Origin: the human T2T-CHM13v2.0 reference genome, Homo sapiens
NCBI GenBank assembly: GCA_009914755.4
Contig: CP068257.2
Coordinates: 6,400,001 to 6,464,000 of the forward strand
DNA: 64,000 bases
Reading direction: 5' to 3'
The notes beneath the pieces were generated by a model. It ran no database searches, was not told the origin of the DNA, and saw only the letters and a list, made by a program, of their open reading frames with translations. Below are positions 9,001 to 44,010 of the stretch, in pieces; position 1 is the stretch's first letter; every line of letters starts with the position of its first letter. The translations under genes were made by a program, and so were the position numbers.

Positions 9001-9039
9001 CGTATGCAATGGAATGGCATTGAATGGACTCGAAAGGAA

Positions 9040-15000: not shown

Positions 15001-18000
15001 AAACAATGGCATGGAATAGAATGAACTGGAATGTAATGAGTTTGGAATGGACAGGAATGGAATGGAATGGAATGGAAAGGAATGGAATGGACTCAAATGG
15101 AATAACATGGAATCCAATGGAATAGAATGTAACGGAATGTAATGAACACGAATGTAATGGAATGTAATAGAATGAACTGGAATGTAAAGAATTTGGAATG
15201 GACAGGAATGGAATGGAATGGAATGGAAAGGAATGGAATGGACTCAAATGGAATAACATGGAATCGAATGGAATAGAATGTAACGGAATGTAATGAACAG
15301 GAATGTAATGGAATGTAATGGAATGAAAGGTGCTGGAATGGAATGGAATGGAATGGAGTGGAAAGGAATGAAATGGAATGGATCTTGCACTAATGGGTTG
15401 GAATGCAATGGAATTTACTAGAATGGAATGGAATGGAATGGACTGAAATGGAATAGCATGGAATGGAATGGACTCGAATGCAATGGAATGGAATGGACTC
15501 GAATGGAACGGAATGGACTCGAAAGAGTGGAGTCGAATGGACTTGAACGGATTGCAATGGAATGGAACAGAATGGAATGTACTCGCATGGAATGGAAATG
15601 AATGGAATAGAACGGAACAGAACGGAATGGAATTGACTGGAATGGAAAGGAATGCAATGGAATGGAGTGGACTTGAATGATATGCAATGGAATGGACTCG
15701 AATGAATTGGAATGGACTCAAATACAATGGAATAGAATGGAAAGGAATCAACTGGAATGGAATGGAATAGAATGGCCTCAAATGGATTGAAATGGAATGG
15801 AATGGACTCAAATGCAATGGAATGGAAGGAACCCAACGGAATGGAAAGGACTCGAATAGAATGGTATGGAATGGAATGGACTCAACGGGAATGGAATAGA
15901 TTAGAATGGCCTCGAGTGGGTTGGAATGGAATGGAATCTACTCAAATGGAATGGAATGGAATGGAACCGACAGGCATGGAATGGAAAGGAATGGATCCGA
16001 ATGGAATGGAATGGAATGGAATGCAATGGAATTGAATGGGATGGAATATATTGCAATGGACTCGAATGGAATGGATAGGAATGGACCCAAATGGAATCAA
16101 TTGGAATGGTCTCGATTGGAATGGAACGGACTTGAATCATATTGAATGGAATGGAGTCGAATGAATTGGAATGGAGTCTAGTTGAATGGAATGGAATAGA
16201 ATGGAATGGAATGGATTGGAATAGAATGGAATGGAATGGAGTGGACTCGAATGGAATGGAATGCACTGAAATGGAATGGAATGCAATGGAACCCACTCGA
16301 ATGGAATAGAATGGAATGGAATGGAAGGGACTCGAATGAAATGGAATGAAATGGACTCGAATGGAATGTAGTGGACTCGAATGGAAAGGAATGGACTCGA
16401 AAGGAAAGGGATGTAATGGAGTGGAATGGAATGAAATGGGCTTCAATGGAATAGAATGCAATGGAATGGAAGGGACTCGAATGAAATGGAATGGAAAGGA
16501 CACGAATGCAACGGAATGCACTGGAATGGAATGTAATTGTTAGGAATAGACTCAAAAGTAATGGAATGGAATGGACCCAATTGGAATAGAACGGAATGGA
16601 ATGGAATGGAGAAGAAGGGAATGGAATGGAATGCAATGAAATGGACTGGAATGGATTTCAATGGAATGGAATGGAATAGAATGGAATGGAATGGAATGGA
16701 ATAGATAGGGATGAAATGGAATGGAAGGGACTCCAATAGAATGAAATGCACTCCAAAGGAATGGAATAGAATTGAATGGAATGGACTCGAATGGAATGGG
16801 ATTGACTCAAAAGGAATGGAATGGAAAGGAATGGACTCGAATGGAATGCAATGGAATGGATCTAAGTGGTATGGAAAGTAATGGACATGAATGGAATGGA
16901 AAGGAATAGACTGTAATGGAAAGGAAAGGATTGAAAAGGAATATAATGTAATGGACTCGAATGGAATGGAAAGGACTCGAGTGGAATGGGCTCAAATGGA
17001 ATGGAAAGGCCTCGAGTGGAATGGAACGGAATGCAATGGACTCGAATGGAATGGATTGGAATGTATTCCAATGGAATGGAAAGAAATTGAATGGATTCGA
17101 GTCAAACCGAATGTGTTGGCATGGAATGGACTCGAATGGAATGGAATGTAGTTGAATGAAATGGACTCGAACGGAATGGAATGGAATGGAATAGAATGGA
17201 GTAAAATGGAATGGAAATGAATGGTATCTAATGGAATTGAATGGACAAAATAGGAATGCAATGGAAAAGAATGAAATGGAATTGAATGGACTCAATAGTA
17301 ATGCAATGGAAAAGAATGTAATGGAAAGGAATGGCCTCGAAGGGAATGTAATGGAATGAAATGTGCAGAAATGGAATTGAATGGAAGGAAATCGAATGGA
17401 AAAAATTTTATAGAATGGACTCGAAGGGAAAGCTGTTGAATTGAATGGACCCCAAAGCAATGGAATGGAATGGAACGGATTGGAAAGGAATGGAATGGAA
17501 TGAAATGGAAAAAACTCGAATGGAATTTAATGGAATGGAATGGAATGGAATGGAATTGACTAGGATTAAGTGGAGTGGAATGGAAAGGAATGGAATGGAG
17601 TGGAATGGAATTGACTCAAGTGGAATGGAATGCAATGGGCTCAAATAAAATGGAATGCAATGGACTCGAGTGAAATGGAATGCAGTGGAACGGACTCGAA
17701 AGAAATGCAGTGGAATGGAATAGACTGCAATACAATCGAATGGAATGGAATGGAGTGAAATGGAATGGACAACAAAGACATGGAATGAAATAGAACGGGT
17801 TCAAGTTGAATGGAATGGAATAGAATGAAATGGAATGGAATACAATGGACTCAAATGGCATGCAATGGAATGGAATTGAAACGAATGGAATGGACTCAAA
17901 TGGAATTTAATGGAATGGTGCCAAAAGGAATGGAATGGAAATGAATGTAATTTACTCTAATGCGATGGTACTGAATGGAATATAATATAATGGAATGGAC

Positions 18001-21000
18001 TCAGATGGAATAGCACAGAATAGAATGGACTCTAATGCAATTGAATTGAATGGAATCGAATGGAATTGAACGGATTTCAATGGAGTGGTGTCTAATGGAT
18101 TCGAATGGAATGCAATGGAATGGAATGGAATGTACTCGAATGGAATGGAATGGAATGAAATGAAACGGACTCGAATGGAATGGAATGGAATGGCATGGAA
18201 TGGAATGGAATGGATTTAAATGGAAAGCAGTTGATTTGAACAAAATGGAATGGAACGGAACGGAAAGGAATGCAATGGAATGGAATGGAAAACAATGCAA
18301 GGGAATTCAATAGAATGGAAAGTAATGAAATTGAATGGAATGGAATGCAATGCAATGCAATGCCATGAAATGCAATGCAAGGAAATGAAATGGACTCGGA
18401 TGGAATGGAATGGTCTCAAATGAAAAGGAATGGACCAGAATGAAATGGAATGGAATGAAATGAAATGGACAAGAATGGAATGGACCGGAATGGAATGGAA
18501 AGGAATGGAATGGAATGGAATGGAATAGAATGAAACAGAATGAAATAGAATGGATTGGAACAGAATGGAATGGAATGGACTCAAATGGAATGGACTCGAA
18601 TGGAACACAGTGGAATTTACTGGATTAGAATCTAACGGAATTAACTGTGATGAAAAGGAATGGAATGGACTCGAATGGAATCGATGGGAATTGAATGGAC
18701 GTGAATGGAATGAAACAGAATGGACACGAAAGGAATAGAATGGAATGGAATGGAATGGAATGGAATGGTGTTGAATGGAATAGAATGGAATGCAATGGAC
18801 TCGAATGATATGGAATTTAATGGATGCAAAAGGAATGGAATGAACTCAATGGAATGGAATGGAATGGAATCGAAAGGAATGGAATGGAATGGACTCACGT
18901 GGAATGAAATGGAATGGTATCAAATGCAATAGATTGAAATGGAATGGACTCGAGATGAAAGGAATGGAATGGACAGGAAAGGAATGGAATTGAATGGAAT
19001 GGAATGGAATGGAATGGACAGGAAAGGAATGGAATTGAATGGAATGGAATGGAATGGAATAGACCCGAAACGAATGTAATGGAAGGAAATGTGCTGCAAT
19101 GGAATGGAATGGAATGGAATGGAATGGAATGGAATGGAATGGAATGGACTTCAAAGGAATGTAAAGGAATGAAACGTGCTGGGAAGGAATGGAATGGAAT
19201 GGAATGGAATAAAATGTAATGGAATGGAATCGAATGGAATGTAGTTGAATTGCATGGACCTGAAAGCAATGGAATGGTATGGAACAGATTAGAAGGGAAT
19301 GGAATGGAATGAAAAGGAAAAGCCTCGAATGGAATGCAATGGAATGGAATAGACTCGAATGAAATGGAGTGGACTCGAATGGAATGGAGTGGAATGGAAT
19401 CGACTCGAGTGGAATGGAACGGAATGGCCTCGAAAGAAATGGCATGCAGTGGCATGGAGTCCAAAGGAATGCAATGGAAAGCAAAAGAATTGAATGGAAT
19501 GGAATGGAACGGAATGGAAAGGAATGGAATTGACGCGAATGAAATGGAATGGAATAGAATGGACTCCAATGGAATGGAATGGAATGGAATGGAATGGAAT
19601 TTACTCCAATGCGATGGAATGGAATCGAATTTACTCGAACGGAATGGAATGAATGGACTCAAATGGAATAGCATGGAATGGTATGGACTCTAATGCACTG
19701 GAATTGAATGGATTCGAATGGAATGGAATGGAATGGCATGGAATGGAAAAGTTTGGATTTGAATTGAAAGGACCCAAAAAGAAAGGAATGGATTGGAATG
19801 GAATGCAATGGAATGGAATGTAATGGAATGGATTGGATTTGAATAGAAAGGACCCGAAAAGAATGGAATGGCATGGAATGAAGAGGCCTCGAATGGAATG
19901 GAATGGATTGGAATGGACTCGATTGAAATGGAATGGACTCGAATGGAATGTAAAAGAATGGAGTTGACTGGAGTGCAATGGAATGGAATAGAATTGATTT
20001 GAATGGAATGCAATGGACACGAAAGAAATGGAACGGAATGGAATGGAATGGAATGGACTCACATGGAACGGAATAGACTCGAATGGAATAGCACAGAATA
20101 GACTCGAATGGATTGGAATGCAATGGAATGGGCTCGATGGAATGGAATAGAATGGGCTCGATGGAATGGAATAGAATGGACTCGAAAGGAATTCAATGGA
20201 CTCGAAAGGATTGGAACAGAATGCAAAGGAATGGAATCGAATGCAATGCAATGGAATTGAATCGAATAGAATTGAATGGAGTTGCCACGAATGGAAAGGC
20301 TGGAATGGAATGGAATGGAATTGAAAGGAAAGGAATGGATTAGGCACAAATGGCATGGAATGGAATGGAATGGAATGGATTCGAATGGAATTGAATGGAA
20401 TGGATTCAAACGACATAATATGTAATTGAATGGACGCGAAAGCAATGGAATGGAATGGACTCGAAAGGAATGGTATGGACTCAAACTAAATAGAGTGGAA
20501 TGGACTCCAATGAAATGGAAAGGAGTTGAATGGACTCGAATAGAATGGAATGTATCAGAATAGAATGAACTCAAATGGAATGGAATGGAATTTAATGAAA
20601 TGGACTCGAATGGAATGGAATGAAATGGAATGTACTGGAATGGAATGGAAGGGAATGGAATGCGTTTGAATTGAGTGGACTGGAAAAGAATGGAATTTAA
20701 TGGAATGGAATGAAATGGAAAGAAGTGGCTTCGAATGGATTCGAATGGAAAGGAATTTACTCGAATGAAATGGAATGGAATCAAATGGAATGAAATGGAA
20801 TGGGATCAACTCGTGTGCAATGGAATGGAATGGAATGGATTCGAAGGGAATGCAATGCAATGGACACGAATGGAATAGAACCAAAAGGAATGGAACGGAA
20901 TGGAGAGGTACGGAATGGAACGGAATGGAATGGAACGGAACGGAATGGAAAGGAATGGAACGGAACGCAATGGATTGAAATGGAATGGAATCGAATGGAA

Positions 21001-21950
21001 TGGAATGGATTGGAATCTAATGGAATGGAATATAATTGACTCGAAAGGAATGGAATGCAGTTGAGTGCACTCAAATGGAATAGAATGGAATGGAATGGAA
21101 GGGACTCGAATGAAATGGAACAGAATGGACTCGAATGTAATTGAATGGACTGGAATGGAGTGGAATGGAATGGTATGGAGAAGAATGGAATAGATAGGAA
21201 TGGAATGGAACGGAAGGGACTATAATAGGATGCAATGGACTCCAAAGGAATGGAATAGAACGGAATAGACAGCAATGGAATGGATTCAAATCGTATAGAA
21301 TGTAATGGAAAATATAGGACAGGAGAAAATGGAATGGAATGGACTCGAATGGAATGTACTGGACTCAAAAGGAATGGAATGGAATGGACTTAAGTGGAAT
21401 GGAATGTAATGGACAGGAATGGAATGAAATGGAACAGACGGTAATGTAAAGAAATGGATTGGAAAGGAATGGAATGGGATAGACTAGAAAGGAATGGAAA
21501 GGACTCGAGTAGAATGGATTGGAATGGAATGGACTCGAATGGAATGGAAAGGATTCGAGTGGAATGGAATGGAATGCAATGGACTCGAACGGAATGGGGT
21601 GGAAGTTATTCTAATGGAATGGAGTGGATTTTATTATAATGGAATGGAATGGAATTGAATGGATTTGAATTGAACTGAATATAATGTCATGGAATGGACT
21701 CGAATGTAATGTAATTTAATGGAATGAAATGTATTCCAAAGGAATGGAATGGAATGGACTCGAATGGAATGGAATGGAATGGAATAAAATGGAATGGACA
21801 ACAATGGTATGCAATGGAATTGAATGGACTCAACAGGAATGCAATGGAAAAGAATGTAATGGAATGGAGTGGACTCGAAAGGAATGTAATGGAATGAAAT
21901 GTGCTGAAATGGAATGGAATGGAATGGAATGGAGTGGAATGGAATAGAAT
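9040..21950 (+). repeat. Diverged higher-order periodicity (~0.85 / ~1.7-2 kb) in subfamily A, marked by a recurring ~450 bp module (…GAATGTAACGGAATGGAATGAACCCGAATGG…AAATGTGCTGG…GGAATTTACTCGAATGGGATGG…GGACTGAAATGCAATAGCATGG…GGACTCGAATGGAGTGGAGTCGAATGGAC…)
   Basis: Recognisable module copies lie near 9040-9400, 9880-10260, 11400-11790, 13100-13480, 13590-13870 and 15270-15640. The AAATGTGCTG-type marker also recurs near 17352, 19090, 19185 and 21901. A second diverged pair, 10990-11460 versus 12660-13150, is about 1.69 kb apart. Between-copy identity is only about 80-90% by eye. Confidence 0.6.
15014..15323 (+). repeat. Local ~152 bp tandem duplication within subfamily A
   Basis: The block agaatgaactggaatgtaatgagtttggaatggacaggaatggaatggaatggaatggaaaggaatggaatggactcaaatggaataacatggaatc..aatggaatagaatgtaacggaatgtaatgaaca.gaatgtaatggaatgtaat occurs at about 15016 and again at about 15168. 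Confidence 0.8.
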
Positions 21951-24900
21951 GGAAAAAATGTAATAGAATGGAATTGAAGGGAATGCAGTTGAATTCAATG
22001 GACATGAAAGCAATGGAATGGAATGGAACGGATTTGAAAGGAATGGAATGGAATGAAATGGAAAAGACACGAACGCAATGGAATGGAAAGGACTAGAATG
22101 AAATGGAGTGGAATGGAATGGAATAGAATGGAATCGACTCAAGTGGAATGGAATGGAAAGGACGCGTATGATATGGAATGCAGTGGAATGGAATAGAATG
22201 GAATGCAATGGAGTGGATTAGACACGAATGGAATGGAATGGAATGGAATGGAATGGAATGAGATGGAATGGACGCAAATGTAATGGAATGAAACATAATT
22301 GAATCGGAATGGAATGGATTGGAATGGAATGGAATGGAATGGAATCTAATGGAAAAATATAATAGAATGGACTCGAAGGGAATGCAGTTGAATTGAATAG
22401 ACACAAAAGCAATGGAATGGAATGGAACGGACGGGAAGGGAATGGTATGGAATGAAACGGAAAGACTAGAATGGAATGGAAAGGAATGGAATGAACTAGA
22501 TTGAAATATAGTGGAATGGAATGGAATGGAATGCAATGGAATGGAATCGACTCAAGTGGAATGGAATGGAATGGAATCAAATAAAATGGAATGCAGTGGA
22601 ATGGACTCGAATGGAATGCAATGGGATGGAATAGACTCGAATGGAATGGAAAGAAATGTAATTTAATGGAATGAAATGGAATGGACGGGAATGAAATGGA
22701 ATGAAATACAATGGATTCGAATGGAATGGAATGGAATGGAATGCAACGGACACAAATGGAATGGAAAGGACTTGAAAAGAATGGAATGGACTCGAATAGA
22801 ATTTATTGGGATGGTTCCAAATGGAATGGAATGGAATGGAATTTAATTGAACGTGATGGAATGGAATGGAATTTACTCCAATGGACTGGAATGGAATGGA
22901 ATCAAAAGGAAAAGAATGGAATGGATTGGACTCGAATGCAATGGAATGGAATGGACTCGAATGCAATCGTATGGACTTGATCAGAATAGAGTGGAAAGAA
23001 ATCCAAAGGATAGGAGTGGAATTGAAGGGACTCGAATAGAATGGAAAGTAACGGAATGGAATGAACTCGAATGGAATGGAATGAAATGGACTCGAATGGA
23101 ATGGAATGATCTGGAATGGAATGGAATGCAATGCATTTGAATTGAATGAAGCCGAAAAGAATGGAATGGAATGGAATGGAATGGAATGGAATGGAATGGA
23201 ATGGAATGGAATGGAGTGGATTTGAATTGAATGGACCTGAAGAGAATGGAATGGAACGGACTGGAATGATGAGGCCTCGAATGGAATGGAATGGATCGGA
23301 ATGGACTTGAATGAAATGGAACGGACTCGAATAGAATGGAATAGAATTTAATCGACTTGAGGGCAATGGAATGGAATCGAATAGAATGGAATCGACTCGA
23401 GTTCAATGGAATGGAATGGAATGGATACGAATGGAATGGAATGGACCCAAACGGAATGGAATGGAACGGAATGGAATGGAATGGAACTGAATGGAATTTC
23501 CACGCATGGAATGGAATAGACTAGAATGGAATGGAAAGGAGTAACTCGAAGAAAATGGAATGCAATGGAATGCACTCGAATGGAATGGAATAGAACAGAC
23601 TAAAAAGGAATTCATTGGACTTGAAAGGAATGGAATGGAATGCAGTGGAATGGAATCGAATGGATTGAAATGGAACTGACTCGAAAGGAATTCAGTGGAT
23701 TGGCCACGAATGGAAGGGGTGGAATGGAATGGACTAGAATTGAATGGCAAGGAATGCATTGGTCTCAAATGGAATGGAATATATTGGAATGCAATTGAAT
23801 AGAATCGAAAGGAATCCAATGGAATTGACAGGAATGGAATTGAATGGAGTGGCCACGAATGGAAGGGGTGGAAAGGAATGGACTGCAATTGAAATCAAAG
23901 GAAGGCACTGGGCTCAAAAGGAATGGAATGGAATGGATTCGAATGGAATTGAATGGAATGGATTCAAATGGAATTGCATGGAATGAAATGGACTTGAATG
24001 CAATGGAATGGAGTGGACTCGAATGGAATGGTATGGACTAGAACAGAATAGAGTGGAATGGACTTCAATTGAATGCAATGGAATTGAATGGACAAGAATA
24101 GAATGCAATATAACAGAATGGAATGAACTGGAATACAATGGAATGGAATGGAATGAAATGGACTTGAATGGAATGGAATCGAACGGAATGCACTGGAATG
24201 GAATGGAATGCATTTGAATTGAATGGACCCGAAAAGAAGAATGGAAAGGAATGGAATGGAATGGAATGGAATGGAATGAATTTGAAATTAATGGACCTGA
24301 AAAGACGATAATGGAAAGGAATGGAATGAAGTGGCCTCGAATAAAATGGAATGGATTGAAATGGACTCGAAAGAAATGTTATGGACTCGAATGGAATGGA
24401 ATAGAATGGAATCAGCACGAGTTCAATGGATTTAAATTGAATGGATTGGAATGCAACGGAAAGTACCCGAATGGAATGGAATGGAATGGAACGGAATGGA
24501 ATGGAAAAGAAACGAATGGACTCACATGGAATAGAAGAGAATCGATTGGAACAGAACGGAATAAACTCGAATGGAATGGAATGCCACAGAATGGACTCGA
24601 ATGGAATGGATTAGAATGGACTAGAATGGAATTCAATGCACTCGAAAGGAATGCAATGGAATGCAAATGAATGGAATCAAATGGAATGCAAGGGAATTGA
24701 CTAGAATGGAATTGTTTGGAGAGGCCACGAATGGTAAGGGTGGAATGGAATGCACAGGAATTGAATGGAAAGGAATGGATTGAGCTTAAATGGAATGGAA
24801 TGGAATGGATTGGACTGGAATTGAATGGAATGGATTCAAATGGAATAGCATGGAATGGAATGGACATGAATGCAATCGAATGGAATGGATTCGAATGGAA

Positions 24901-25499
24901 TGGTATGGACTCGAACGGAATAGAGTGGTATGGACTTCAATGGAATGGAATGGAATGGAATGGAATCGAATAGAATGGAATGTAACGGAATGGAATGAAC
25001 TCGAATCCAAAGGTATGGAATGAAATGGACTCGAAATATTTCGAATGGAATGGAAAGGAATATATTGGAATGGAATGGAATCGAATGGAATGCATTCGAA
25101 TTGAAGAGAACTGAAAAGAATGGAAAGGAATGGAATGCAATGAAGTGGCCTCGAAGGGAATGGAATGGATTGGAAAGGACTCGAATGAAATGGAATGGAT
25201 TCGAATGGAATGGAATAGAATGGAATTGACTCGAGTACAATCGAATGGAATGGAATGGATTCTAATGGAATGGAATGGACCCAAATGGAATGGACCAGAA
25301 CCAAACGGAATGGAATGGAACAGAATGGAATGGAGTCGCATGGAATGTAAAGGAATGGACCCAAATGGAATGGAATGGAATGGAATGGAATGGAATGGAA
25401 TGGATTTCAATGTAATAGAATGAATGGAATGGAATGGACACGAAAGGATTTGAATGGAATGGAATGGAATGGATTGGAGTGGAATGGAATGGAATAGAA

Positions 25500-28400
25500 T
25501 GGAATATAACGGAATGGAATGGAATGGAAAGGAATGGAATCAACTGGAATGGAATTGAATGGAATGGAATGGAATGGTAGGGAATGCAATGGAATGGTAT
25601 GGAATGGAAGGGAATGGTAGCGAATGCAATGGAATGGAATGGAATCAACGCGAGTGGAATGGAATGGAATGGAATGGAGTGGAATTGAATCCACTGGAAT
25701 GGAATGGAATGGAATGGAATGAAACGGAAAGGAATTTAATGGAATGGAATGGAATCAACACGAGTGGAATTGAATGGAATGGAATGGAATGGAATAAACC
25801 CGAGTGGAGTGGAATGGAATGGAATGGAATGGAAAGGAATGGAATAGAATAGAATGGAATGGAATCAACCATAAGGGAATGGAATTGAAAGGAATCGAAT
25901 GGAATAGAATCGAATGGAATTGAATCAACCAGAGTGCAATGGAATGGAATGCAGTGGAATGAAACAGAATGAAATAGAATGGAATTGAATTAACATGAGG
26001 GGAATGGAATGGAATGGAAGGGAAAAGAATGGAACTTAATCATCTGGAGTGGAACGAATGGAATGGAATGGAATGGAATAGAAAGGAATTGAATCAGCCT
26101 GAGTGGAATGGAATGGAATGGAATGGAATAGAATGGAATGGAATGGAATGGAATGGAATGGATTGGAATGGAATGGAATAGAATTGTATTGAATTAACTG
26201 GAATGGAATGGAATGGAATGGATTGGAATGGAATGGAATAGAATGGAATTGAATTAACTGGAATGGAATGGAATGGAATGGAATGGAATGGAATGAAATG
26301 GAATGGAAAGGAATGGAATAGAATTGAATTGAATTAACTGGAATGGAATGGAACGGAATGGAATGGATTGGAATGGAATGGAATAGAATGGAATAGAATT
26401 AACTGGAATGGAATGAAATGGAATGGAATGGAATGGAATGGAATGGAATGAAATGAAATGGAATGGAATGGAATGGAATGGAATGAAATAAAATGGAATG
26501 GAATGAAATGGAATGGAAAGGAATTGAGTCAAGTATAATGGAATGGAAGGGAATGGAATGGAATGGAATGGAATGGAATCAACTGCTATGTAATGAAACG
26601 GATTGGAATGGAATGGAATGGAATAGAAAGGAATTGAATCAACCTGAGTGCAATGGAATGGAATGGAATGGAATTGCGTCAACTGAAATGGAATGGAATG
26701 GAAAGAAAAGGAATGGAATGGAATTGAATGGAAAGGAATGGAAAGGAATGGAATGGAATGGAATGGAAAGGAATTGAATCAACCTGAGTGGAATGGATTG
26801 GAATGGAATAGAATGGAATGGAATAGAATGGAATTGAATTGAGTCAACTGGAATGGAATGGAATGGAATGGAATGGAATGGAATGGAATGGAATTGCATC
26901 AACTGAAATGGAATGAAATGGAAAGGAAAGGAATGGAATGGAATTGAATGGAATGGAATGGAAAGGAATGGAATGGAATGGAATGGAATGGAATTGAATC
27001 AACCTGAGTGGAATGGATTGGAATGGAATAGAATGGAATGGAATGGAATGGAATTGAATTGAGTCAACTGGAATGGAATGGAATGTAACGGAATGGAAAG
27101 GAAAGGAATGGAATGGAATTGAATGGAATGGAATGGAAAGGAATGGAATGGAGTGGAATGGAAAGGAATGGAATTGAATGGAATGGAATCGAATGGAATC
27201 AACTGGAGTGGAATGGAGTGGAATGCAATGGAATGGAATAGAAGGAAAAGGTGGGGAATGTAATAGAATGTAATGGAATGAACCCCAATGGAATATAATG
27301 TAATGTAATGGAATGGAATGGAATGGAATTGAATGGAACGGAAAGGAGTGGAATTGAATCCACTGGAATGGAATGGAATGGAATGGTATGGAATGTAATG
27401 GAATCAACCCGAGTGGAATGGAATGGATTAGTCTGGAATGGAATTGAATGGATTGGAAAGGAATGGACTGGAATAGAATGGATTGGAATGGAATAAAATG
27501 GAAGTGAATCAACACGAGTGGAGTGGAAAGGAATGGAATGGAATGGATTGGAATGGAATAGAATAGAATGGAATTGAATCAACCCGAGTGGAATGGAATG
27601 GAATGGAATGGAATGGAATGGAATGGAAAGAAATGGAATGGAATGGAATGGAGTGGAATGGAATGGAAAGAAATGGAATGGAATGGAATGGAATCAACCC
27701 GATTGGAATGGAATGGAATGGCATGGCATGGAATGGAATGGAATGGAATAGAATGGAATTGAATCAACATGAGTGGAATGGAATGGAATGGAATAGAATG
27801 GAATTGAATCAACATGAGTGGAATGGAATGGAATGGAATAGAATGGAATTGAATCAACATGAGTGGAATGGAATGGAATGGAATGGATTCAACTGGAATG
27901 GAATGGAAAGGAATGAAACGGTATGGAAAGAAAGGAATTGAATAGAAAGGAAGGGAATGGAAAGGAATTTATTGGAAAGGAATGGAATGGAAAGGAATGG
28001 AATCAACTGAAAAGAAAGGAATGGAATGGAATGGAATGGAATGGAATGGTAGAGAATGCGAAGGAATGGTAGGGAATGGAATGGAACGATAGGGAATGGA
28101 ATGCAACGGAATGGAATCAACACGAGTTGTATGGAATGGAATGTAATGGAACGGAATGTAGTGGAACTGAATCCAGTGGAATGGAATGGAATTGAATGGA
28201 ATGGAATAGAATGGTATGGAATGTAATGGAGTCAAGCCGAGTGGAATGGAATGGATTGGTCTAGAATGGAAATGAATGGATTGTAAAGGAATGGAATGGA
28301 ATAGAATGGAATGGAACAGAATAAAACAGAATTGAATAAACACGAGTGGAGTGGAAAGGAATGAAATGGAATGGAATGGAATGGAACGAAATCGAATGGA

Positions 28401-30500
28401 ATGGAATGGAATCAACCCGATTGGAATGGAATGGAATGGAAACGAATGGAATGGAAACGAATGGAATGGAATCAATGGGAATGGAATGCAATGGATTGGA
28501 ATGGAATGGAATGGAATGGAATGAACCCGAGTGGGAAGGAGTGAAATGGAATGGAATGCAATGGACTGGAATGGAATGGAATGGAATGGATTGGAATGGA
28601 ATGGAATGGAATTGAATAAAAGAATTGAATCAACCTGAGTGCAATGGAATGGAATGGAAAGGAATGGAATGGAATGGAATGGAATAGAATGGAATTGAAT
28701 CAACCGGAATGGAATGCGGTGGAATGGAATGGAGAGGAGTCGAATGGAGTGGAATGGAATGGAAAGGAGTGGAATGGAATGGAATGGAATAGAATGGAAT
28801 TGAATCAACCGGAACGGAATGCAGTGGAATGGAATGGAATGGAATGGAATGGAATGGAATGGAATGGAATGGAATGGAATTGAGTGAACTCTAATGGAAT
28901 GAAGTGGAATGGAGGGGAATGGAATGGAATGGAATCAACACGAGTGGAATGGAATGGAATGGAACAGAATGGAGTGGAATGGAATTGAATCAACCCGAGT
29001 GGAATGGAATTGAATTGAATGGAAAGGAATGGAATTGAATAGAATGGAATTGAATCCACCAAATTGGAATGAAATGGAATGGAATGGAATGGAATGGAAT
29101 GGAATCAACTGGAATGGAAAGGAATGTAATTGACTCAACTGGAATGGAATGGAATGGAATGGAATAGAATGGAATTAAACCAACAGGAATGGAATGGATT
29201 GGAATGGAATAGTGTGGAAAGGAATGGAATTGAATCAACTGGAATGGAATGGAATGGAATGGAAATGGAATGGAATCAACCCGACGGGAATGGAATGGAA
29301 TGGAATGGAATAGAATGGAATTGAATTCACTGGAATGGAAAGGAATTCAATGGAATGAAATGGAATGGAATGGAATGAAATGAAATAGAATGGAATTGAG
29401 TCAACTGTATTGGAATGGGTTGTAATGGAATGGAATGGAATTGAGTCAACCCTAGTGGAATGAATGGAATGGAAAGGAATTGAAGGGAATGGAAATGAAT
29501 GGAATGGAATGGATTGGAATCAACTGGAATGCAATGAAATGGACTGCAATGGAATGGAATGGAATAGAAAGGAATTGAATCAACCTGAGGGGAATGGAAT
29601 GGAATGCAATGGAATGGAATGCAATGGAATGGAATGGAATGGAATAGAATGGAATTGAACGAACCAGAATGGAATGGAATCAACCCGACTGGAATGGAAT
29701 GAAATGGAATGGAATGGAATGGAATAGAATGGAATTGAATTAAGCGGAATGGAATGGAATGGAATGGAATGGAATTGAGTCAACTGGAATGGAATGGAAT
29801 GGAATGGAATTGAATGGAGAGGAAAGGATTGGAATGGCATTGAATGGAATGGAATGGAAAGGTATGGTATGGAATCGGATGGAATGGAATGGAATAGAAT
29901 AGAGTGGAATGGTAGGGAATGGAATAGAATGGAATGGAATCCAACCGAATGGAAGGGAATGTAATGTAATGGAATGGAATGGAATAGAGTGTAATTGAAT
30001 CCACTGGAATGGAATGGAATATAAAGGAAAGGAATGTAATGTAATTGAAAGGAATGTAATTGAATGGAATGGAATGGATTGGAAAGGAATGGAATCAACT
30101 GGAATGGAATGTAGTGGAATGGAACAGAATGGAATGGAATGGTACGAAATGCAATGAAATGGTATAGAATGGAATGGAATGGTAGGGAAAGGAGTGGAAT
30201 GGAATGGAATCAACACGAGTGGAATGGAAAGGAATGGAATGGAATAGAATGGAATCAATTGGAATGCAATGGAATGGAAATAAATCAACCGGAGTGGAAT
30301 GGAATGGAATGGAAGGGAACGGATTAGAATGGAATGAACTGTAAAGGTATGGAATGGAATGGCATGAAAAAGAATGGAATGTATGGGAAAGGAATCGAAT
30401 GGAATTGAATCAACCTGGGGGGATAGAATGGAATGGAATGGAATGGAATGGAATGGAATGGAATAGAATGGAATGGAAACAACGCGAGTGGAATGGAGTG
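25500..30500 (+). repeat. Transitional sub-domain of the HSat3 array enriched in CAACTGGAATGG / CAACATGAGTGG / CAACCTGAGTGG punctuation variants with short local periodicities (60 bp at ~26161-26280; 50 bp x3 at ~27741-27890; ~215 bp x2-3 at ~26655-27300)
   Basis: Direct reading. Identical 60-mers (gattggaatggaatggaatagaatggaattgaattaactggaatggaatggaatggaatg) occur at 26161 and 26221. Three copies of ggaatagaatggaattgaatcaacatgagtggaatggaatggaatgg occur at 27741, 27791 and 27841. Near-identical 215 bp blocks start at 26655 and 26871. Confidence 0.7.
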
Positions 30501-32599
30501 GAATGGATTGGATTGGAATGGAATGGAATGCAATGGAATGGAATGGAATGGAATGGAATGGAATGCAATGGAATGGAATGGAATGGAATGCAATGGAATT
30601 CAAAAGAATGGAATGGAATGGAATGGAAAGGAATCTACCCAAATAGAATAGAATGGAATAGAATGCAATGGAATGGAAAGGAATAAATCCGAATAGAATG
30701 GAATGGAATAGAATCAACACTAGTTGAATAGAACGGAATGGAATAGAATGGAATGGAATGGAATGCAATGGAATGGAATGGAATGGAATGGAATGGAGAG
30801 GGGTGGAATGGAATAGAAATTTATTGAATCAAACCCAATGGAATGTATTGGGATGGAATGGAATGGAATGGAATGGAATGGGATAGAATGGAATCGAATA
30901 GAATAGAAAGGAATTGAATAAACCCGAGTTGATTGGAAAAAAATGAAATGGAATGGAAAGGAAAAAAATGGATTTGAATCAACCCGAGTGGAATGGTATG
31001 GAATGGAATGGAATAGAATGAAATGGAAACAACCCAAGTGGAAAGGAATGGAAGCGAATGAAATTGAATGGAACAGAATGGAATGTAATGGACTGGAATA
31101 GAATGGAATTTATCAACCCGAGTGGAAAGGAATGGAATGGAATGGAATGGAATGGAATGGAATGGAAGGAAATGGAATAGAATCAAGCCGAGTTGAATGC
31201 AATGGAATGCAATGGAATGGAATAGAATCAACCCGAGTGGAAAGTAATGGAATGGAATGGAAAGGAATGGAATGGAATGGATTCGAATAGAAGCAACACG
31301 AGTGGAATGGAATGGAATGGAATGGAATGAAATCAACCCAAGTGGATTGGAATGGAATGGAATGGGATGGAATGGAATCAAACCGAGTGGAGTGGAATGG
31401 AATGCAATGGAATGGAATCGAATGGAAAGGAATAGAATGGAATTGAATTAACCCAAGTTTAGTGGAATAGAATGGAATGATATGGATTGGAATAGAATGG
31501 ATTTGAATGGAATGGAATGGAAAGGAATGGAACTGAATCAGCCCAAGTGGAATGGAATGGAATGGAATGGAATTGAATGGAATTTAATGGAATGGAATCA
31601 ACCCCAGTGGAATGGAATGGGAAGGAATGGAATGGAATGGAATGGAATGGAATGGAATGGAATGGAATTGAATAGAGTGGGATGGAATAGAATGGAATGG
31701 AATCAACCAGAGTGGAATGGAATGGAATGCAATAGAATAGAATGGAATGGAATGTTAGGAATGCAATAGAATGGAATGGAATCAACTCGAGTGGAATGGA
31801 AAGGAATTGAGTGGAATGCAATAGAATTTAATGGAATCCACTAGAGTGGAATGGAATGGTATGGAAAGGAGTGAAATGCCATAGAACGGATTTGAATCAA
31901 CCCGAGTGGAGTGGAGTGGAATGGAATGGAATGGAATGGAATGGAATTCAATCAACCCGAGTGGAATGGAATGGAATGGAATGGAATGAAATGGAATGGA
32001 ATGGAATGCAATGGAATTCAATAGAATGGAATTGAATCAACACGTGTGTAATGGAATGGAATGGAATGGAATGGAATGGAGTGGAATGGAACAGAAATTT
32101 ATTGAATAAACCCGAGTGGAATGCAACGGGATGGAATGGAATGGAATAGAATGGGATTGAATCAACCAGAGTGGAATGGAATGGAACAGAAAGAAATGGA
32201 TTGGAATGGAATGGAATAGAATGGAATTGAAACAACGCGAGTGGAACGGAATGGAAGGGAATGGAATTGAATGGAACCGAATGTAATGTAATGGAAAGGA
32301 ATAGAATGGAATTTATCAACCTGAGTGGAATGGAATGGAATGGAATGGAATGGAATGGGATGGAATAGGATGGAAATGAATCTAACCAAGTGGAATGCAA
32401 TGGAATGGAATGGAATGGAATGGAATCAACATTTTGGAGTGGAATGGAATGGAATGGAATAAACCGGAGTGGAAAGGAATGGAATGGAACGGTATTCCAT
32501 GGAATCAACACGAGTGGATTGGAATGGAATGGAAGGGAATACAATGGAATGGAATGCAATGGAATAGAATGGAATGGAATCAACCCGAGTGAAATGGAA

Positions 32600-33160
32600 T
32601 GGAATGGAATGGAATGGCATTGAACGGAATGGAAATGAATCGATTGGAATGGAATGCAATCAACACAAGTGGAATGGAATGCAAAGGAATGGAATCGAAT
32701 GGAATGGAATCAACACGAGTGGAATGGAATGGAATGGAATGGAAAGGAAAAGTATGAAATTGAAAAAACACGTAAGGAATGGAAAGGAATGGAATCGAAT
32801 CAAATGGAATGGAATGGAATGGAGTGGAATGGAGTGGAATACAATGGAATTGAATCAACACGAGTGCAATGGAATTGAATGGAATGGAAAGGAATGGAAT
32901 GGAATGGAAAGGAATGGAATCAACGCGAATGGAATGGAATGGAATGGAATGGAATGTAGGGAAAAGCAATAGAATGGAACTGATTCAACCCGAGTGGAAT
33001 GGAATGGAATGGAATAGAATGGAGTGGAATGGAATAGAATTGAATTGAATTAAAGTGAGTGGAATGGAATGGAATGGAATTTAATGGAATGAAATAGAAT
33101 TCAATTGAATCAAACCGAGTGGAATTTAACGGAATGGAATGGAATGGAATGGAATGGAAT
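32600..33160 (+). repeat. ~560 bp block with a near-identical second copy 3569 bp downstream
   Basis: ORF 32574-32972 (132 aa) is nearly identical to 36143-36541. ORF 32654-32878 is identical to 36223-36447. Sequence identity continues to about 33160/36730 and then diverges. Confidence 0.8.
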
Positions 33161-33490
33161 GAAATGAAATTGAATGGAATGGAATAGAATGGAATTGAAT
33201 CAACCCGAGTGGAATGGAATGGAATGGAATGGAAAAGAATGGAATCGAATGGAATAGAATAGAATGGAATTTAATCAACACGAGTGGAATGGAATGGAAT
33301 GGAATGAAATGGAATGGAATGCAATGGAATAGAATGGAATTAAATCAACACGAATGGAATGGAATGGAATGGAATGGAATGGAATGGAATTGAAACAACC
33401 CGAGTGGAATGGAATGGAATGGAATGGAATAGATTGGAATGGAATGGAATGGAAAGATTTGAATCAACATGAGACGAATGGAATGGAATG

Positions 33491-33520
33491 GAGTGGAGTG
33501 GAGTGGAGTGGAGTGGAGTG
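33491..33520 (+). repeat. Variant pentamer micro-array (GAGTG)6 [= (GGAGT)n]
   Basis: Direct reading: gagtggagtggagtggagtggagtggagtg. Confidence 0.9.
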
Positions 33521-36169
33521 GAATGGAATGGAATTGAATGCAAAGGAAAGGAATGGAATGGAAAGGAATGGAATGGAATCAACACGAATGGAATGGAATG
33601 GAATGGAATGGAGTGAAATGCAATAGAATGGAATTGAATCAACCCGAGTGGGAATGGAATGGAATGGAATGGAATGGAATGGAATGGAATAGAATAAAAT
33701 TTTATCAACCCGTGTGAAATGCAATGGAATGGCATGGAATGGAATGGCATGGAATGGAAAGGAATGGAATGGAATGGAACGGAGTAGAATGGAATTGATT
33801 TAACCAGAGTGGAATGGAATGGAATGGTATAGAATGCAGTGGAATGTAATGGAATGGAATAGAATGGAATTGAATCAACTAAAGTGGAATGGATTGGAAT
33901 GGAATGGAATGGAATAGAAAGGAATTGAAACAACTGGAGTGGAATGGATTGGAATGGAATGCAACGGAACGGAATGGAATGCAGTGGAATTGAATGGAAT
34001 TGAATCAACCCGAGTGCTACGGAATGGAATGGAATGGAAAGGAATGGAATGGAGTGGAATGGAATGGAAAGGAATGGAACGGAATGGAATGGAATGGAAT
34101 CAATTCAACACGAATGGAATGGAATGGAATGGAATGGGGAGGAATGGAATGGAAAGGAATGGAATAGAATGTAATAGAATCAACACCGAGTGGAATGGAA
34201 TGGAATGGAATGGAATGGAATCAACTAGAGTGTAATGGAATAGAATGGAATGGAATGGAATGAAATGGAATGGAATGGAATTAAATGGAATGGAATGGAA
34301 TGGAATGAATTCAACACGAATGGAATGGAATGGAACGGAATGGAATGGAATGGAAAGGAATGGAATGGAAAGGAATGGAATACAATGGAATTGAATTAAC
34401 CCGAGTGGAATGGAATGGAATGCAATTGAATGTAATGGAATGCAACGGAATGGAATGGAATAGAATGCAATTGAATCAAGCCGAGAGGAACGGAATGGAA
34501 TGGAATGGAATGGAACGGAATGGAATGGAATGGAATGGTATCGAATTAACCCGAGTACAATGGAATGGAATGGAAATGTATGGAATGGAATGGAATGGAA
34601 TAGACTGGATTTGAATCAACCAGAGTGGAACGGAATGGAACGGAATGGAATGGAATGGAATGGAATGGAATTGAATTGAATAGTATGGAATTGAAAAAAC
34701 ACGTAAGGAATGGAATGGAATGGAATGGAATGGAATGGAGTGGAATGGAATGGAATTGAATCAACCCGATTGCAATGGAATTGAATGGAATGCAAAGGAA
34801 AGGAATGTAATGTAATGGAATGGAATGGAATAGAAAGATTTGAATAAATCTCAGAGGAATGGAATGGAATGGAAGGGAATGGAATGGAATGGAATGTACT
34901 AGAATGTAATTGAATCAACGCGAGTGGAATGCAGTGGAATGGAATGGAATGGAAAGTAATGCAATGGAATCAACCCGACTGGAATGGAATGGAATGGAAT
35001 GGAATAGAATTTAATAAACCCGTATGAAATGGAATGGAATGGCATGGAATGGAATGGCATGGAATGGAAAGGAATAGAATGGAATGGAACGGAGTAGAAT
35101 GGAATTGATTTAACCCGAGTGGAATGGAATGGAATGGTATGGAATGCAGTGCATTGGAATGGAATGGAATAGAATGGAATTGAATCAACACAAGTGGAAT
35201 GGAATGGAATGAAATGGAAAAGAATGGAATGGAATGGAATGAAATAGAATGGAATTGAAACAACCGGAGGGGAATGGATTGGAATGGAATGGAAAAGAAT
35301 GGAATGGAATGGAATGGAATGGAATGGAATGAAATAGAATGGAATTGAAACAACCGGAGGGTAATGGATTGGAATGGAATTCAATGGAATGGAATGGAAT
35401 GCAGTGCAATAGAATGGAATTGAATCAACCCGAGTGCTATGGAATGGAATGGAATGGAAAGGAATGGAATGGAATGGAATAGAATGGTATTGAATCAACA
35501 CGTGAGGAATGGAATGGAATGGAATGGAATGGAATGGTATGGAATGGAATGGAATAGAATTGAATAAACAAGAGTGTAATGGAATGGAATGGAATGGAAT
35601 GGAATAGAATGGAATTGAATCTACACGAGAAGAATGGAATGGATTGGAATGGAATGGAGTGGAATGGAATGGAATGGAATAAAACCGAGTGGAATGGAAT
35701 GGAATGGAATGGAATGGAATGGAATGGAATGGAATAGAATGAAATTGAATCAACCCGAGTGGAATGGAATGGAATGGAATGGAATTTAATGTAATGGAAT
35801 GGATTGAAATGAAATGGAACGGAATGGAATGGATTGGAATTGAATCAACCCGAGTGGAATGGAATGGAAAGGAATAGAATGGAATGGAGAAGAAGGGAAG
35901 AGAATCAACCCGATTGGAATGGAATGGAATGGCATGGAAAGGAATGGAATGGAATGGAATGGAATGCAATGGAATGGAACAGAATGGAATTGAAAGAATT
36001 GAATCAACCAGAGTAGAATGGAACGGATTGTTATGGAATGGAATGGAGTAGAATGAAATTGTATCAACCAGAGTGGAATGGAATGGAATGGATTGGAATG
36101 GAATGGAATGGAATGGATTGGAATGGACTTGAATAAAGCAGAGTGGAATTTAATGGAATGGAATGGAAT

Positions 36170-36730
36170 GGAATGGAATGGAATGGCATTGAACGGAATG
36201 GAATTGAATCGATTGGAATGGAATGGAATCAACACAAGTGGAATGGAATGCAAAGGAATGGAATCGAATGGAATGGAATCAACACGAGTGGAATGGAATG
36301 GAATGGAATGGAAAGGAAAAGTATGAAATTGAAAAAACACGTAAGGAATGGAAAGGAATGGAATCGAATCAAATGGAATGGAATGGAATGGAGTGGAATG
36401 GAGTGGAATACAATGGAATTGAATCAACACGAGTGCAATGGAATTGAATGGAATGGAAAGGAATGGAATGGAATGGAAAGGAATGGAATCAACGCGAATG
36501 GAATGGAATGGAATGGAATGGAATGTAGGGAAAAGCAATAGAATGGAACTGATTCAACCCGAGTGGAATGGAATGGAATGGAATAGAATGGAGTGGAATG
36601 GAATAGAATTGAATTGAATTAAAGTGAGTGGAATGGAATGGAATGGAATTTAATGGAATGGAATAGAATTCAATTGAATCAAACCGAGTGGAATTTAACG
36701 GAATGGAATGGAATGGAATGGAATGGAATG
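36170..36730 (+). repeat. Second copy of the ~560 bp block (partner of 32600-33160)
   Basis: As above. Confidence 0.8.
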
Positions 36731-42700: not shown

Positions 42701-43485
42701 GAATGGAATGGAATTGAAAGGAATGCAATAGAATGGAATGGAATCCTCTCGAGTGGAATGGAATGGTATGGATTGGAGTGAAATGCAATAAACAGGACTT
42801 GAATCAACCCGAGTGGAGTGGAGTGGAATGGAATGGAATGGAATGGAATGGAATGGAATGGAATGCAATGGAATGGCATTCAATCAATCCAAGGGGAATG
42901 GAATGGAATGGAATTGAATGGAATGGAATGCAATGGAATGGCATTCAATCAATCCAAGGGGAATGGAATGGAATGGAATTGAATGGAATGGAATAGAATA
43001 GAATGGAATTGAATCAATCCGAGTGGAATGGAATGGAATGGAATGGAATGGAATAGAAAAGAATTGAATTAACCCGAGTGGAATGGAATGGATAAGAATG
43101 GAATGGAGTAGAATGGAATTGAATCAACTCGAGTGAAATGGAATGGAAACGAATGGAATGGAATGGAACCAACCCGAATGGAATTGAATGGAATGGAATG
43201 GAAAGGAAAGGAATGGAAAGGAATGGAATGGAAAGGAATGGAATGGAATGCAAAGGAAAGGCATGGAATTGAATCAACCTGAGTTGAGTGGAATGGAATG
43301 CAATGGAATGAAATGCAGTGGAATGGAGTAGAAAGGAATTGAATCAACCAAAATGGAGTGGAATGTAATGTAATGTAATGGAATGGAATGGAATAGAATG
43401 GAATTGAATCAAATCGAGTGGAATGAAATGGAGTTGAAGTGAATGGAATAGAATGGAATGGAATGGAATGGAATGGAATGGAATG

Positions 43486-43775: not shown

Positions 43776-44010
43776 GAAAGGCAGGGAATGGAATGGTTTG
43801 GAACAGAATGGAATTGATTTAACCCGAGTGGAATGGAATGGAATGGTAAGGAATGGAGTGGAATGGAATGGAATGGAATGCAGTGGAATAGAATGGAATT
43901 GAATCAACCCAAATGGAAAGGAATGGAATGGAATGGAATAGAATGGAATTGAAACAACCTGAGTGGATTGGAATGGAATGGAATGGAATGGAATGGAATG
44001 GAATGAAATG
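43776..44010 (+). repeat. Local ~290 bp tandem duplication, copy 2 (partial; lacks the TAATG run)
   Basis: As above. Confidence 0.7.

What the first reader, a model, noticed from the sequence alone, without database searches (positions are those of the whole stretch)
25380..25700. Abrupt junction between two satellite subfamilies in the same orientation
Upstream of about 25.45 kb the array is punctuated by GGAC(T/C/A)CGAATGG motifs and has no CAACCCGAGT. Downstream, the CAAC-type punctuation characteristic of HSat3 appears (25536 CAACTGG, 25645 CAACGCGAGT) and persists to the end of the window. The two arrays abut directly with no intervening non-satellite sequence and no strand flip. Such junctions mark where one array expanded against another. 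They are often the least reliably assembled points of pericentromeres.
Basis: seen in the sequence. Interest (0 to 1): 0.55.

Follow-up and report, generated by a model that had tools for sequence, protein, structure and literature searches.

The report
Boundary between two HSat3 satellite subfamilies
This is a real, sharp and in-register boundary between two known subfamilies of human (GGAAT)n satellite 3 DNA, an A-type array and a B-type array, of a kind already annotated in complete human genome assemblies, so it is ordinary.

Summary
The whole 64-kb window is (GGAAT)n satellite on one strand. Left of about 25,449 the array is punctuated by GGAC(T/C/A)CGAAT (CTCGAA 222 left, 0 right). To the right it is punctuated by CAACCCGAGT-type decamers (0 within 1 mismatch left, 270 right). 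The switch happens within 100 bp or less (25,446-25,539). There is no non-satellite DNA, no strand flip and no shift of the 5-bp register.

Using the one published diagnostic 24-mer per subfamily (Altemose 2014), the left flank is HSat3A-like (A1/A2) and the right flank is HSat3B-like (B2, some B1/B3). HSat2 is excluded.

An independent metagenome contig, VNIW01006290.1 (1,702 bp), spans the junction collinearly. It is 99.5% identical and differs otherwise only by 5-, 10- and 15-bp indels. A mis-join peculiar to this assembly is therefore unlikely.

Both decamers occupy the same two-pentamer slot and share an ACNCGA core, so they are probably variants of one ancestral decamer.

Punctuation is sparser near the junction on both sides, and the recent duplications lie 19 kb or more away. 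The boundary looks old and passive rather than an active expansion front.

Composite A/B HSat3 arrays are already annotated in T2T-CHM13, for example chr20 hsat3_20_3(B3,A1,A2). The chromosome of origin could not be determined. Interest is low.

The parts
1..25445 (+). HSat3A-type array (A1/A2-like). It is (GGAAT)n punctuated by GGAC(T/C/A)CGAAT at a median spacing of 45 bp (modes 25, 30 and 20). It is rich in TaqI sites and CpG and has no long higher-order repeat. It continues beyond the left end of the window.
   Evidence: Searches give motif counts and the in-register consensus GGAAT GGAAT GGACT CGAAT GGAAT. In one search the HSat3A1 24-mer has 1 exact match and 23 (left) vs 2 (right) matches within 1 mismatch; the HSat3A2 24-mer has 4 vs 0. 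In one search TaqI is 13.3/kb and CpG 22.6/kb. One search finds only one self-match of 250 bp or more at 88% identity or better (257 bp).
25436..25445 (+). Last left-type decamer (GGACACGAAA).
   Evidence: this is the only GAC[N]CGAA after 25,178, and there are none to the right of it; the 22-mer starting here is unique in the window.
25446..25539 (+). Breakpoint interval: 94 bp of generic GGAAT-like pentamers carrying neither punctuation type. The likelihood change point is at 25,449 (25,443-25,480). The 5-bp register is unbroken.
   Evidence: One search gives the likelihood-ratio change point. One search shows a single GGAAT phase run from 25,426 to 26,011 that spans the junction; the nearest frameshift is a 1-bp loss near 25,421. 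One search gives the sequence.
25541..25550 (+). First right-type punctuation (CAACTGGAAT, preceded by T at 25,540).
25646..25655 (+). First full CAACNNGAGT decamer (CAACGCGAGT).
25540..64000 (+). HSat3B-type array. It is (GGAAT)n punctuated by CAACCCGAGT-type decamers at a median spacing of 80 bp. It is poor in TaqI sites and contains local 2.5-3.6-kb duplications. It continues beyond the right end of the window.
   Evidence: Searches give the consensus GGAAT tGAAT CAACC CGAGT GGAAT. In one search the HSat3B2 24-mer has 4 exact matches and 39 (right) vs 0 (left) within 1 mismatch; HSat3B1 has 38 vs 0 within 2 mismatches; HSat3B3 has 10 vs 1. One search lists the duplications. One search gives TaqI at 1.6/kb.
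25243..26974 (+). Stretch reproduced collinearly by the independent contig VNIW01006290.1 (L001, reverse strand), spanning the junction.
   Evidence: the alignment is end to end, with 8 substitutions in 1,682 aligned columns (99.5%). The 8 indel events are of 5, 5, 5, 5, 10, 10, 15 and 15 bp.

Best explanation
The site is a genuine boundary between two neighbouring domains of satellite 3 DNA, most likely in human pericentromeric or acrocentric heterochromatin. To the left is an HSat3A-type array (closest to A1/A2), whose pentamer runs are interrupted by GGACTCGAAT. To the right is an HSat3B-type array (closest to B2, with B1/B3 features), interrupted by CAACCCGAGT.

Both arrays run head to tail in the same orientation and the same 5-bp register. 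Both decamers replace exactly two GGAAT units and share the derived core A-C-N-C-G-A. They are therefore most simply read as two variants of one ancestral pentamer-plus-decamer satellite.

Inferred mechanism: each variant was amplified and homogenised separately by unequal crossing-over, gene conversion or replication slippage. The boundary is where the two homogenisation domains meet. Exchange does not spread across it, so the switch stays sharp (100 bp or less).

The boundary is passive DNA with no function of its own. Its practical consequences are a step in restriction-site and CpG density: TaqI falls from 13.3 to 1.6 sites per kb and CpG from 22.6 to 13.7 per kb.

Shown here: the step, the orientation, the register, the motif relationship, the A/B assignment from single diagnostic 24-mers, and the presence of the same junction in a second assembly. 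Inferred: the human origin, the amplification history, and that the boundary is old.
For: - Sharp single step: motif counts, likelihood change point at 25,449, and a single sign change of PC1.
- Same strand and no foreign DNA.
- Same register: GGAC[N]CGAAT is in phase 0 with the upstream GGAAT in 129 of 130 cases, and CAACNNGAGT in 186 of 194. The junction lies inside one phase run, 25,426-26,011. The consensus contexts align pentamer for pentamer.
- Intermediate decamers exist. On the left: CAACTCGAAT x1, GGACCCGAAT x9, GGACTCGAGT x7, CGACTCGAGT x4. On the right: CAACTCGAGT x6, CAACCCGAAT x8.
- Subfamily 24-mers: A1 and A2 hit only or mainly the left; B2, B1 and B3 hit only or mainly the right; HSat2 has no hit (using Table 1 of PMC4022460).
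- An independent contig spans the junction at 99.5% identity, with indels only in multiples of 5 bp.
- Both edges have sparser punctuation: 6.4 vs 10.7 motifs per kb in the first 4.5 kb on the right (p = 0.004), and 9.7 vs 14.4 per kb in the last 7.5 kb on the left (p = 0.001).
- Recent duplications are only at 32-37, 44-50 and 54-60 kb.
- Precedent: T2T-CHM13 annotates composite arrays such as hsat3_20_3(B3,A1,A2), hsat3_2_2(B3,A1,A2) and hsat3_1_2(B3,A4). It also describes the chr20 3B3|3A1 'super-array' with clearly separated components. hg19 clones with mixed subfamilies are listed.
Against: - The subfamily assignment rests on one published 24-mer per subfamily, because the stored copy of the full 24-mer library is truncated to HSat2A1. 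B2 vs B3 and A1 vs A2 are not resolved.
- The second contig reaches only about 200 bp into the left array, and its sample of origin is unknown. It could be a paralogous copy rather than an allele.
- In-register continuity has a 1-in-5 chance under random joining, so it is weak evidence for in-situ origin.
- The edge-decay intervals were chosen after looking at the data. The exact-motif and CpG-retention contrasts are not significant (p about 0.1).
- Overall 14-mer sharing is only slightly higher within the left array than between arrays (0.139 vs 0.125). The left 'domain' is therefore defined by its punctuation rather than by recent homogenisation.
Confidence: 0.85

Rival explanations
1. Assembly artefact: two unrelated HSat3 arrays were joined wrongly through their shared GGAAT tract, so the adjacency does not exist in the genome.
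For: The 94-bp breakpoint interval is generic pentamer sequence in which an assembler could switch paths. Satellite boundaries are hard to assemble (general knowledge). No read data could be examined.
Against: The independent contig VNIW01006290.1 carries the same junction with both flank types. It differs by 8 substitutions and 8 pentamer-multiple indels, so it is not a copy of this assembly. The junction is in register. Motif density declines gradually on both sides over several kb, which a random chimeric join would not produce.
Confidence: 0.04
2. Juxtaposition by rearrangement: the two arrays arose at different places and were brought together by a translocation, insertion or non-homologous or homeologous exchange (for example between acrocentric short arms). 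On this view the junction is a rearrangement breakpoint, not an in-situ divergence boundary.
For: HSat3 subfamilies are shared among acrocentric and other chromosomes, and pericentromeres are rearranged often. A and B are the two deepest HSat3 branches, so adjacent origin is not required. The step is very sharp.
Against: The same orientation (chance 1 in 2) and the same pentamer register (chance 1 in 5) are kept. There is no filler, microsatellite scar or inverted repeat at the junction. Both edges show sparser motifs, as old array ends do. None of this excludes an exchange mediated by GGAAT homology.
Confidence: 0.25
3. The left flank is HSat2, so this is an HSat2|HSat3 junction rather than a boundary between two HSat3 subfamilies.
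For: The left array is rich in TCGA/CGAAT, a feature associated with HSat2.
Against: None of the three HSat2 diagnostic 24-mers matches, even with 2 mismatches. CGAA occurs about 14 times per kb, roughly once per 72 bp. An HSat2-type unit would be expected to give about one per 10-13 bp (own knowledge). Exact GGAAT copies make up 37% of the left flank. The HSat3A1 24-mer ends in the same ATTCGAGT motif.
Confidence: 0.02
4. No discrete boundary: a single array whose punctuation motif drifts gradually along its length.
For: The two decamers are related, and rare intermediates occur on both sides. The k-mer content of the pentamer backbone is largely shared.
Against: Counts go from 222 to 0 and from 0 to 270 within 100 bp or less. 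The likelihood ratio per 100 bp flips sign between 25,401-25,500 and 25,501-25,600, with no mosaic zone.
Confidence: 0.02

Closest known systems
T2T-CHM13 chr20 HSat3 'super-array' hsat3_20_3(B3,A1,A2), chr20:32,017,128-32,969,583 (Altemose et al., bioRxiv 10.1101/2021.07.12.452052, Table S1 and Fig. S10A)
   Same: An HSat3B block abuts a small HSat3A1 array inside one continuous HSat3 tract. The two components separate clearly on a dot plot, and the B block contains local regions of recent expansion. The window likewise shows an A1-like array touching a B-type array, with local duplications only in the B part.
   Different: Identity with this locus was not tested, because no human reference is available to the tools. 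The B flank here hits the B2 diagnostic 24-mer better than the B3 one. In CHM13 + strand coordinates the order is B then A; here, on the GGAAT strand, it is A then B.
HSat3B2 (pTRS-63 / HUMASAT3 type; chr1 polymorphic ~400-500 kb array; chr13, 14, 21)
   Same: The most common B2-specific 24-mer occurs 4 times exactly and 39 times within 1 mismatch in the right array, and never in the left. There is a weak ~1.4-kb k-mer spacing signal, and the 2,823-bp duplication offset is about twice the published 1,404-bp unit.
   Different: There is no consistent 1.4-kb higher-order repeat across the 38 kb. Only one diagnostic 24-mer could be tested. B1 and B3 24-mers also have near matches.
HSat3A1 / HSat3A2 (pW-1, cMEN219, QP23; pE-1, pK-1)
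   Same: The diagnostic 24-mers contain the same ATTCGAGT/ATTCGACTCC (GGACTCGAAT/GGAGTCGAAT) punctuation. A1 has 1 exact match and 23 (left) vs 2 (right) within 1 mismatch; A2 has 4 vs 0.
   Different: Only a single exact hit in 25 kb. No 1.5-1.7-kb repeat unit was detected in the left array.
Classical satellite III definition: (ATTCC)n with interspersed A(T/C)TCGGGTTG (Prosser et al. 1986; own knowledge)
   Same: The right array fits exactly: CAACCCGAGT x93 and CAACCCGAAT x8.
   Different: The left array lacks this decamer. It carries GGACTCGAAT in the same slot.

Membership tests
HSat3 (human satellite 3) | Backbone of tandem GGAAT/CATTC pentamers on one strand | tested here: met
   Exact GGAAT copies make up 37% of bases on the left and 50% on the right. 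Identity to best-phase (GGAAT)n is 75% and 78%. ATTCC is essentially absent. TRF reports period 5 across 20-31 kb.
HSat3 (classical definition) | Interspersed decamer CAACCCGA(G/A)T (= A(T/C)TCGGGTTG) | tested here: met
   Met for the right array: 93 exact matches and 270 within 1 mismatch. Not met for the left array, which has 0 within 1 mismatch and carries GGACTCGAAT in the same slot instead.
HSat3B (B1-B5) | Matches to B-subfamily-specific 24-mers (Altemose 2014) | tested here: met
   Only the single top 24-mer of each subfamily was available. B2 has 4 exact matches and 39 (right) vs 0 (left) within 1 mismatch. B1 has 38 vs 0 within 2 mismatches. B3 has 10 vs 1. B2 vs B3 is not resolved.
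HSat3A (A1/A2) | Matches to A-subfamily-specific 24-mers (Altemose 2014) | tested here: inconclusive
   A1 has 1 exact match and 23 (left) vs 2 (right) within 1 mismatch. A2 has 4 vs 0 within 1 mismatch. A3, A5 and A6 have no left-specific match. The A4 24-mer has slightly more loose matches on the right. The direction is clear, but support is thin for a specific subfamily.
HSat2 | Matches to HSat2A1/2A2/2B-specific 24-mers; dense CGAAT-containing 23-26-bp units | tested here: not met
   There are no matches within 2 mismatches on either flank. CGAA occurs only about 14 times per kb on the left.
HSat2,3 subfamily (formal assignment) | Classification with the complete subfamily-specific 24-mer library or the T2T cenSat track | not testable with these tools
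   The stored Dataset S2 is truncated and holds only HSat2A1 24-mers. No human reference assembly is searchable.
Real genomic adjacency | Junction present in independent sequence data | tested here: met
   One independent 1,702-bp contig spans it. It reaches only 206 bp into the left array, and no read-level test was possible.

The most novel reading that the evidence does not exclude
The junction may be an in-situ fossil of the HSat3A/HSat3B split. On this reading one ancestral pentamer-plus-decamer array diverged into a GGACTCGAAT lineage and a CAACCCGAGT lineage side by side. The two decamers are homologous (same two-pentamer slot, shared ACNCGA core, rare intermediates on both sides). The unbroken register across the boundary would be the trace of that continuity. 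If so, such boundaries could be used to date and order the origin of the two deepest HSat3 branches.
Probability: 0.2. Interest if true: 0.3.

Novelty: already known. Interest (0 to 1): 0.12.

Why it matters
It matters little beyond annotation.

It gives a base-level description of an HSat3A|HSat3B boundary:
- The switch takes 100 bp or less.
- Strand and pentamer register are the same on both sides.
- The two punctuation decamers appear to be homologous.

The step in TaqI and CpG density marks the boundary for restriction, methylation or probe-based assays. The unique 22-mer GGACACGAAAGGATTTGAATGG at 25,436 could serve as a marker for locating this junction in human assemblies or reads.

Tried and rejected
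- Full Altemose 24-mer classification: the stored Dataset S2 is truncated and contains only HSat2A1 k-mers. Only the 14 top 24-mers of Table 1 could be used.
- Scans of bacterial and archaeal genome contigs for two junction-specific 22-mers, hoping for human contamination: no hit. Viral contigs: no hit.
- Exact look-up of two ORFs that span the junction in public gene calls: not on record.
- Protein homology search with the junction-spanning ORF, to find more spanning contigs: the best hit is only 66% identical, i.e. generic HSat3 translations.
- Literature search for the WGS prefix VNIW, to identify the sample behind the matching contig: nothing. list_loci gives no metadata.
- Higher-order repeat search: gapless autocorrelation, k-mer spacing and self-BLAST found no array-wide period in either flank, only three local duplications on the right.
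- All-against-all BLAST of 500-bp chunks timed out. It was replaced by 14-mer containment, which discriminates the flanks only weakly because the pentamer backbone is shared.
- Rfam: no family matched. No inverted repeat lies at the junction; the only one found nearby is a 16-nt palindrome at 25,081-25,104.
- Search for papers quoting the decamer: no useful satellite reference retrieved.
- Rejected readings: HSat2 on the left, a gradual drift within one array, and (largely) an assembly chimera. See the rival explanations.
Full report
**1. What is there**

The entire 64-kb window is (GGAAT)n-type satellite on the + strand. Exact GGAAT occurs 131-221 times per 2 kb and ATTCC 0-1 times. GC skew (+0.53 to +0.79) and AT skew stay positive throughout. 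TRF sees one period-5 array across 20-31 kb. There is no foreign insert: the largest gap between exact GGAAT copies is 89 bp. Rfam finds nothing.

**2.

- CTCGAA occurs 222 times left of 25,450 and never to the right. GGAC[ACT]CGAATGG is 90 vs 0, and GAC[N]CGAA is 190 vs 0.
- CAACCCGAGT is 0 vs 93 exact, 0 vs 270 within 1 mismatch, and 10 vs 392 within 2 mismatches. The binomial p-values range from 1e-21 to 1e-89.
- The last left-type decamer is GGACACGAAA at 25,436. The first right-type motifs are TCAACTGG at 25,540/25,541 and CAACGCGAGT at 25,646.
- An order-8 Markov model was trained on 1-22,000 and on 29,000-64,000. It puts the change point at 25,449, with 25,443-25,480 within 6 nats. The likelihood ratio per 100 bp changes sign between 25,401-25,500 and 25,501-25,600, with no mosaic zone.
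- In an Altemose-style 5-mer PCA of 1-kb chunks, PC1 carries 52% of the variance. It changes sign once, in the 25,001-26,000 chunk.

**3. Anatomy of the junction**

The junction lies inside a single unbroken GGAAT phase run (25,426-26,011). The nearest frameshift is a 1-bp loss near 25,421, left of the last left-type decamer. No inverted repeat lies at the junction; the only one found within about 1 kb either side is a 16-nt palindrome at 25,081-25,104.

Both punctuation decamers sit in the same register relative to the pentamers: 129 of 130 on the left and 186 of 194 on the right are in phase 0. The consensus contexts align pentamer for pentamer:
- left: GGAAT GGAAT | GGACT CGAAT | GGAAT
- right: GGAAT tGAAT | CAACC CGAGT | GGAAT

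Relative to GGAATGGAAT, both decamers share the derived C at positions 4 and 6, giving the core ACNCGA. Intermediates occur at low frequency:
- on the left: CAACTCGAAT, GGACCCGAAT x9, GGACTCGAGT x7, CGACTCGAGT x4
- on the right: CAACTCGAGT x6, CAACCCGAAT x8

I infer that the two decamers are variants of one ancestral decamer.

**4. The two arrays differ in other ways**

| Feature | Left | Right |
|---|---|---|
| Median punctuation spacing | 45 bp (modes 25, 30, 20) | 80 bp |
| TaqI sites per kb | 13.3 | 1.6 |
| CpG per kb | 22.6 | 13.7 |
| HaeIII sites | 21 | 0 |
| Exact GGAAT as share of bases | 37% | 50% |

Neither flank has an array-wide higher-order repeat. The right array has three local duplications, with offsets of 2,511 bp (98.7% identity), 2,823 bp (95%) and 3,569 bp (88%). 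All lie 7 kb or more from the junction, and the two recent ones lie 19 kb or more away.

Punctuation is sparser near the junction on both sides. It is 6.4 vs 10.7 motifs per kb in the first 4.5 kb on the right (p = 0.004). It is 9.7 vs 14.4 per kb in the last 7.5 kb on the left (p = 0.001). These intervals were chosen after looking at the data, and the exact-motif and CpG-retention contrasts are not significant. This fits decayed array edges better than an active expansion front.

**5. Identity**

Table 1 of Altemose et al. 2014 (PMC4022460) gives the commonest specific 24-mer for each of the 14 HSat2,3 subfamilies. I searched all of them on both strands:

| 24-mer | Exact matches | Left vs right, with mismatches |
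|---|---|---|
| HSat3A1 | 1 (left) | 23 vs 2 within 1 mismatch |
| HSat3A2 | 0 | 4 vs 0 within 1 mismatch |
| HSat3B2 | 4 (right) | 0 vs 39 within 1 mismatch |
| HSat3B1 | 0 | 0 vs 38 within 2 mismatches |
| HSat3B3 | 0 | 1 vs 10 within 2 mismatches |
| HSat2A1, 2A2, 2B | 0 | no match within 2 mismatches |

The left flank is therefore HSat3A-type (A1/A2-like) and the right flank HSat3B-type (B2, with B1/B3 features). This is a boundary between the two deepest HSat3 branches, not an HSat2|HSat3 junction.

The finer assignment is tentative, because the stored copy of the complete 24-mer library is truncated.

Exact matches to 24-mers derived from the HuRef genome, together with the contig in point 6, make a human origin likely. 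This is an inference.

**6. Is the adjacency real?**

A scan of metagenome contigs for the junction-specific 22-mer GGACACGAAAGGATTTGAATGG found one contig, VNIW01006290.1 (1,702 bp). The 22-mer is unique in the window.

The contig aligns end to end, on the reverse strand, to window 25,243-26,974. It has 8 substitutions in 1,682 aligned columns (99.5% identity). Its eight indel events are of 5, 5, 5, 5, 10, 10, 15 and 15 bp, all whole pentamers. It carries left-type motifs (GGACCCAAAT x2, GGACACGAAA) followed by the right-type CAAC series.

It is therefore a different haplotype or a paralogue, not a copy of this assembly, and it has the same junction.

Caveats: it reaches only 206 bp into the left array, and its sample of origin is unknown. 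Other attempts to find further copies failed.

**7. Comparison with what is known**

T2T-CHM13's cenSat table lists continuous HSat3 tracts that hold both B and A subfamilies:
- hsat3_20_3(B3,A1,A2) at chr20:32,017,128-32,969,583
- hsat3_2_2(B3,A1,A2)
- hsat3_1_2(B3,A4)

Its Fig. S10A describes the chr20 case as a 3B3 block and a small 3A1 array forming a 'super-array'. The components separate clearly, and the B block has local recent expansions. That is the pattern seen here.

hg19 clones with mixed subfamilies were already tabulated in 2014. Flow-sorted chromosome data place 3A1 and 3B2 together on chr1, 13, 20 and 21. HSat3B2 on chr1 is a polymorphic array of about 400-500 kb.

Which of these loci the window comes from cannot be decided with the tools available.

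**8. Verdict**

The finding is real and correctly described, but it is an ordinary feature of a known kind. It is most likely an old, passive boundary between two separately homogenised variants of one ancestral pentamer-plus-decamer satellite. That history is inferred, not shown.

An exchange between GGAAT tracts that brought two arrays together cannot be excluded (about 0.25). An assembly chimera is unlikely (about 0.04).

Noticed in passing
window 44399-49632: Tandem duplication of about 2.5 kb inside the right array. 44399-47126 matches 46910-49632 at 98.7% identity (offset 2,511). It is the most recent amplification event visible in the window.
   Followed up: partly
window 54488-60470: Tandem duplication of about 2.8 kb. 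54488-57632 matches 57311-60470 at 95.1% identity (offset 2,823, about twice the published 1,404-bp pTRS-63 unit of HSat3B2).
   Followed up: partly
window 32593-37355: Older duplication. 32593-33746 matches 36162-37355 at 88% identity (offset 3,569).
   Followed up: no
window ~53000-62000: A sub-block of the right array in which GC rises from about 0.38 to about 0.41. Here CAAC is often preceded by A, G or C instead of T (GGAAACAAC, GGGAGCAAC, CCACCCAACTGG). PC3 of the 5-mer PCA shifts here too. This may be a second, softer sub-variant boundary, coinciding with the 2.8-kb duplication.
   Followed up: partly
window 43715-43785: A run of about 11 GTAAT pentamers, a local micro-expansion of a single-substitution variant of GGAAT.
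   Followed up: no
window 17373-17462: The most degenerate stretch of the window: 89 bp without an exact GGAAT, containing AAAAAATTTTATAG. It is still satellite-like, with no sign of a transposon.
   Followed up: no
window 1-25445 vs 25540-64000: Restriction and CpG contrast between the flanks. TaqI is 13.3 vs 1.6 sites per kb (median fragment 50 vs 385 bp). HaeIII has 21 vs 0 sites (GGCCTCGAAT variant). CpG is 22.6 vs 13.7 per kb, and CpG observed/expected is 0.91 vs 0.68.
   Followed up: yes
L001 (VNIW01006290.1) 1-1702 vs window 25243-26974: All eight length differences between the two copies are whole multiples of 5 bp (5, 5, 5, 5, 10, 10, 15, 15). This is what pentamer slippage or unequal exchange would produce; collapse during short-read assembly is an alternative.
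   Followed up: partly
window 143, 4904, 5259, 15749, 20807: Five isolated ATCAAC(T) motifs inside the left array, for example GGAATCAACTCGAAT at 4904 and GGAATCAACTGGAAT at 15749. They look like hybrids between the left and right decamers.
   Followed up: partly
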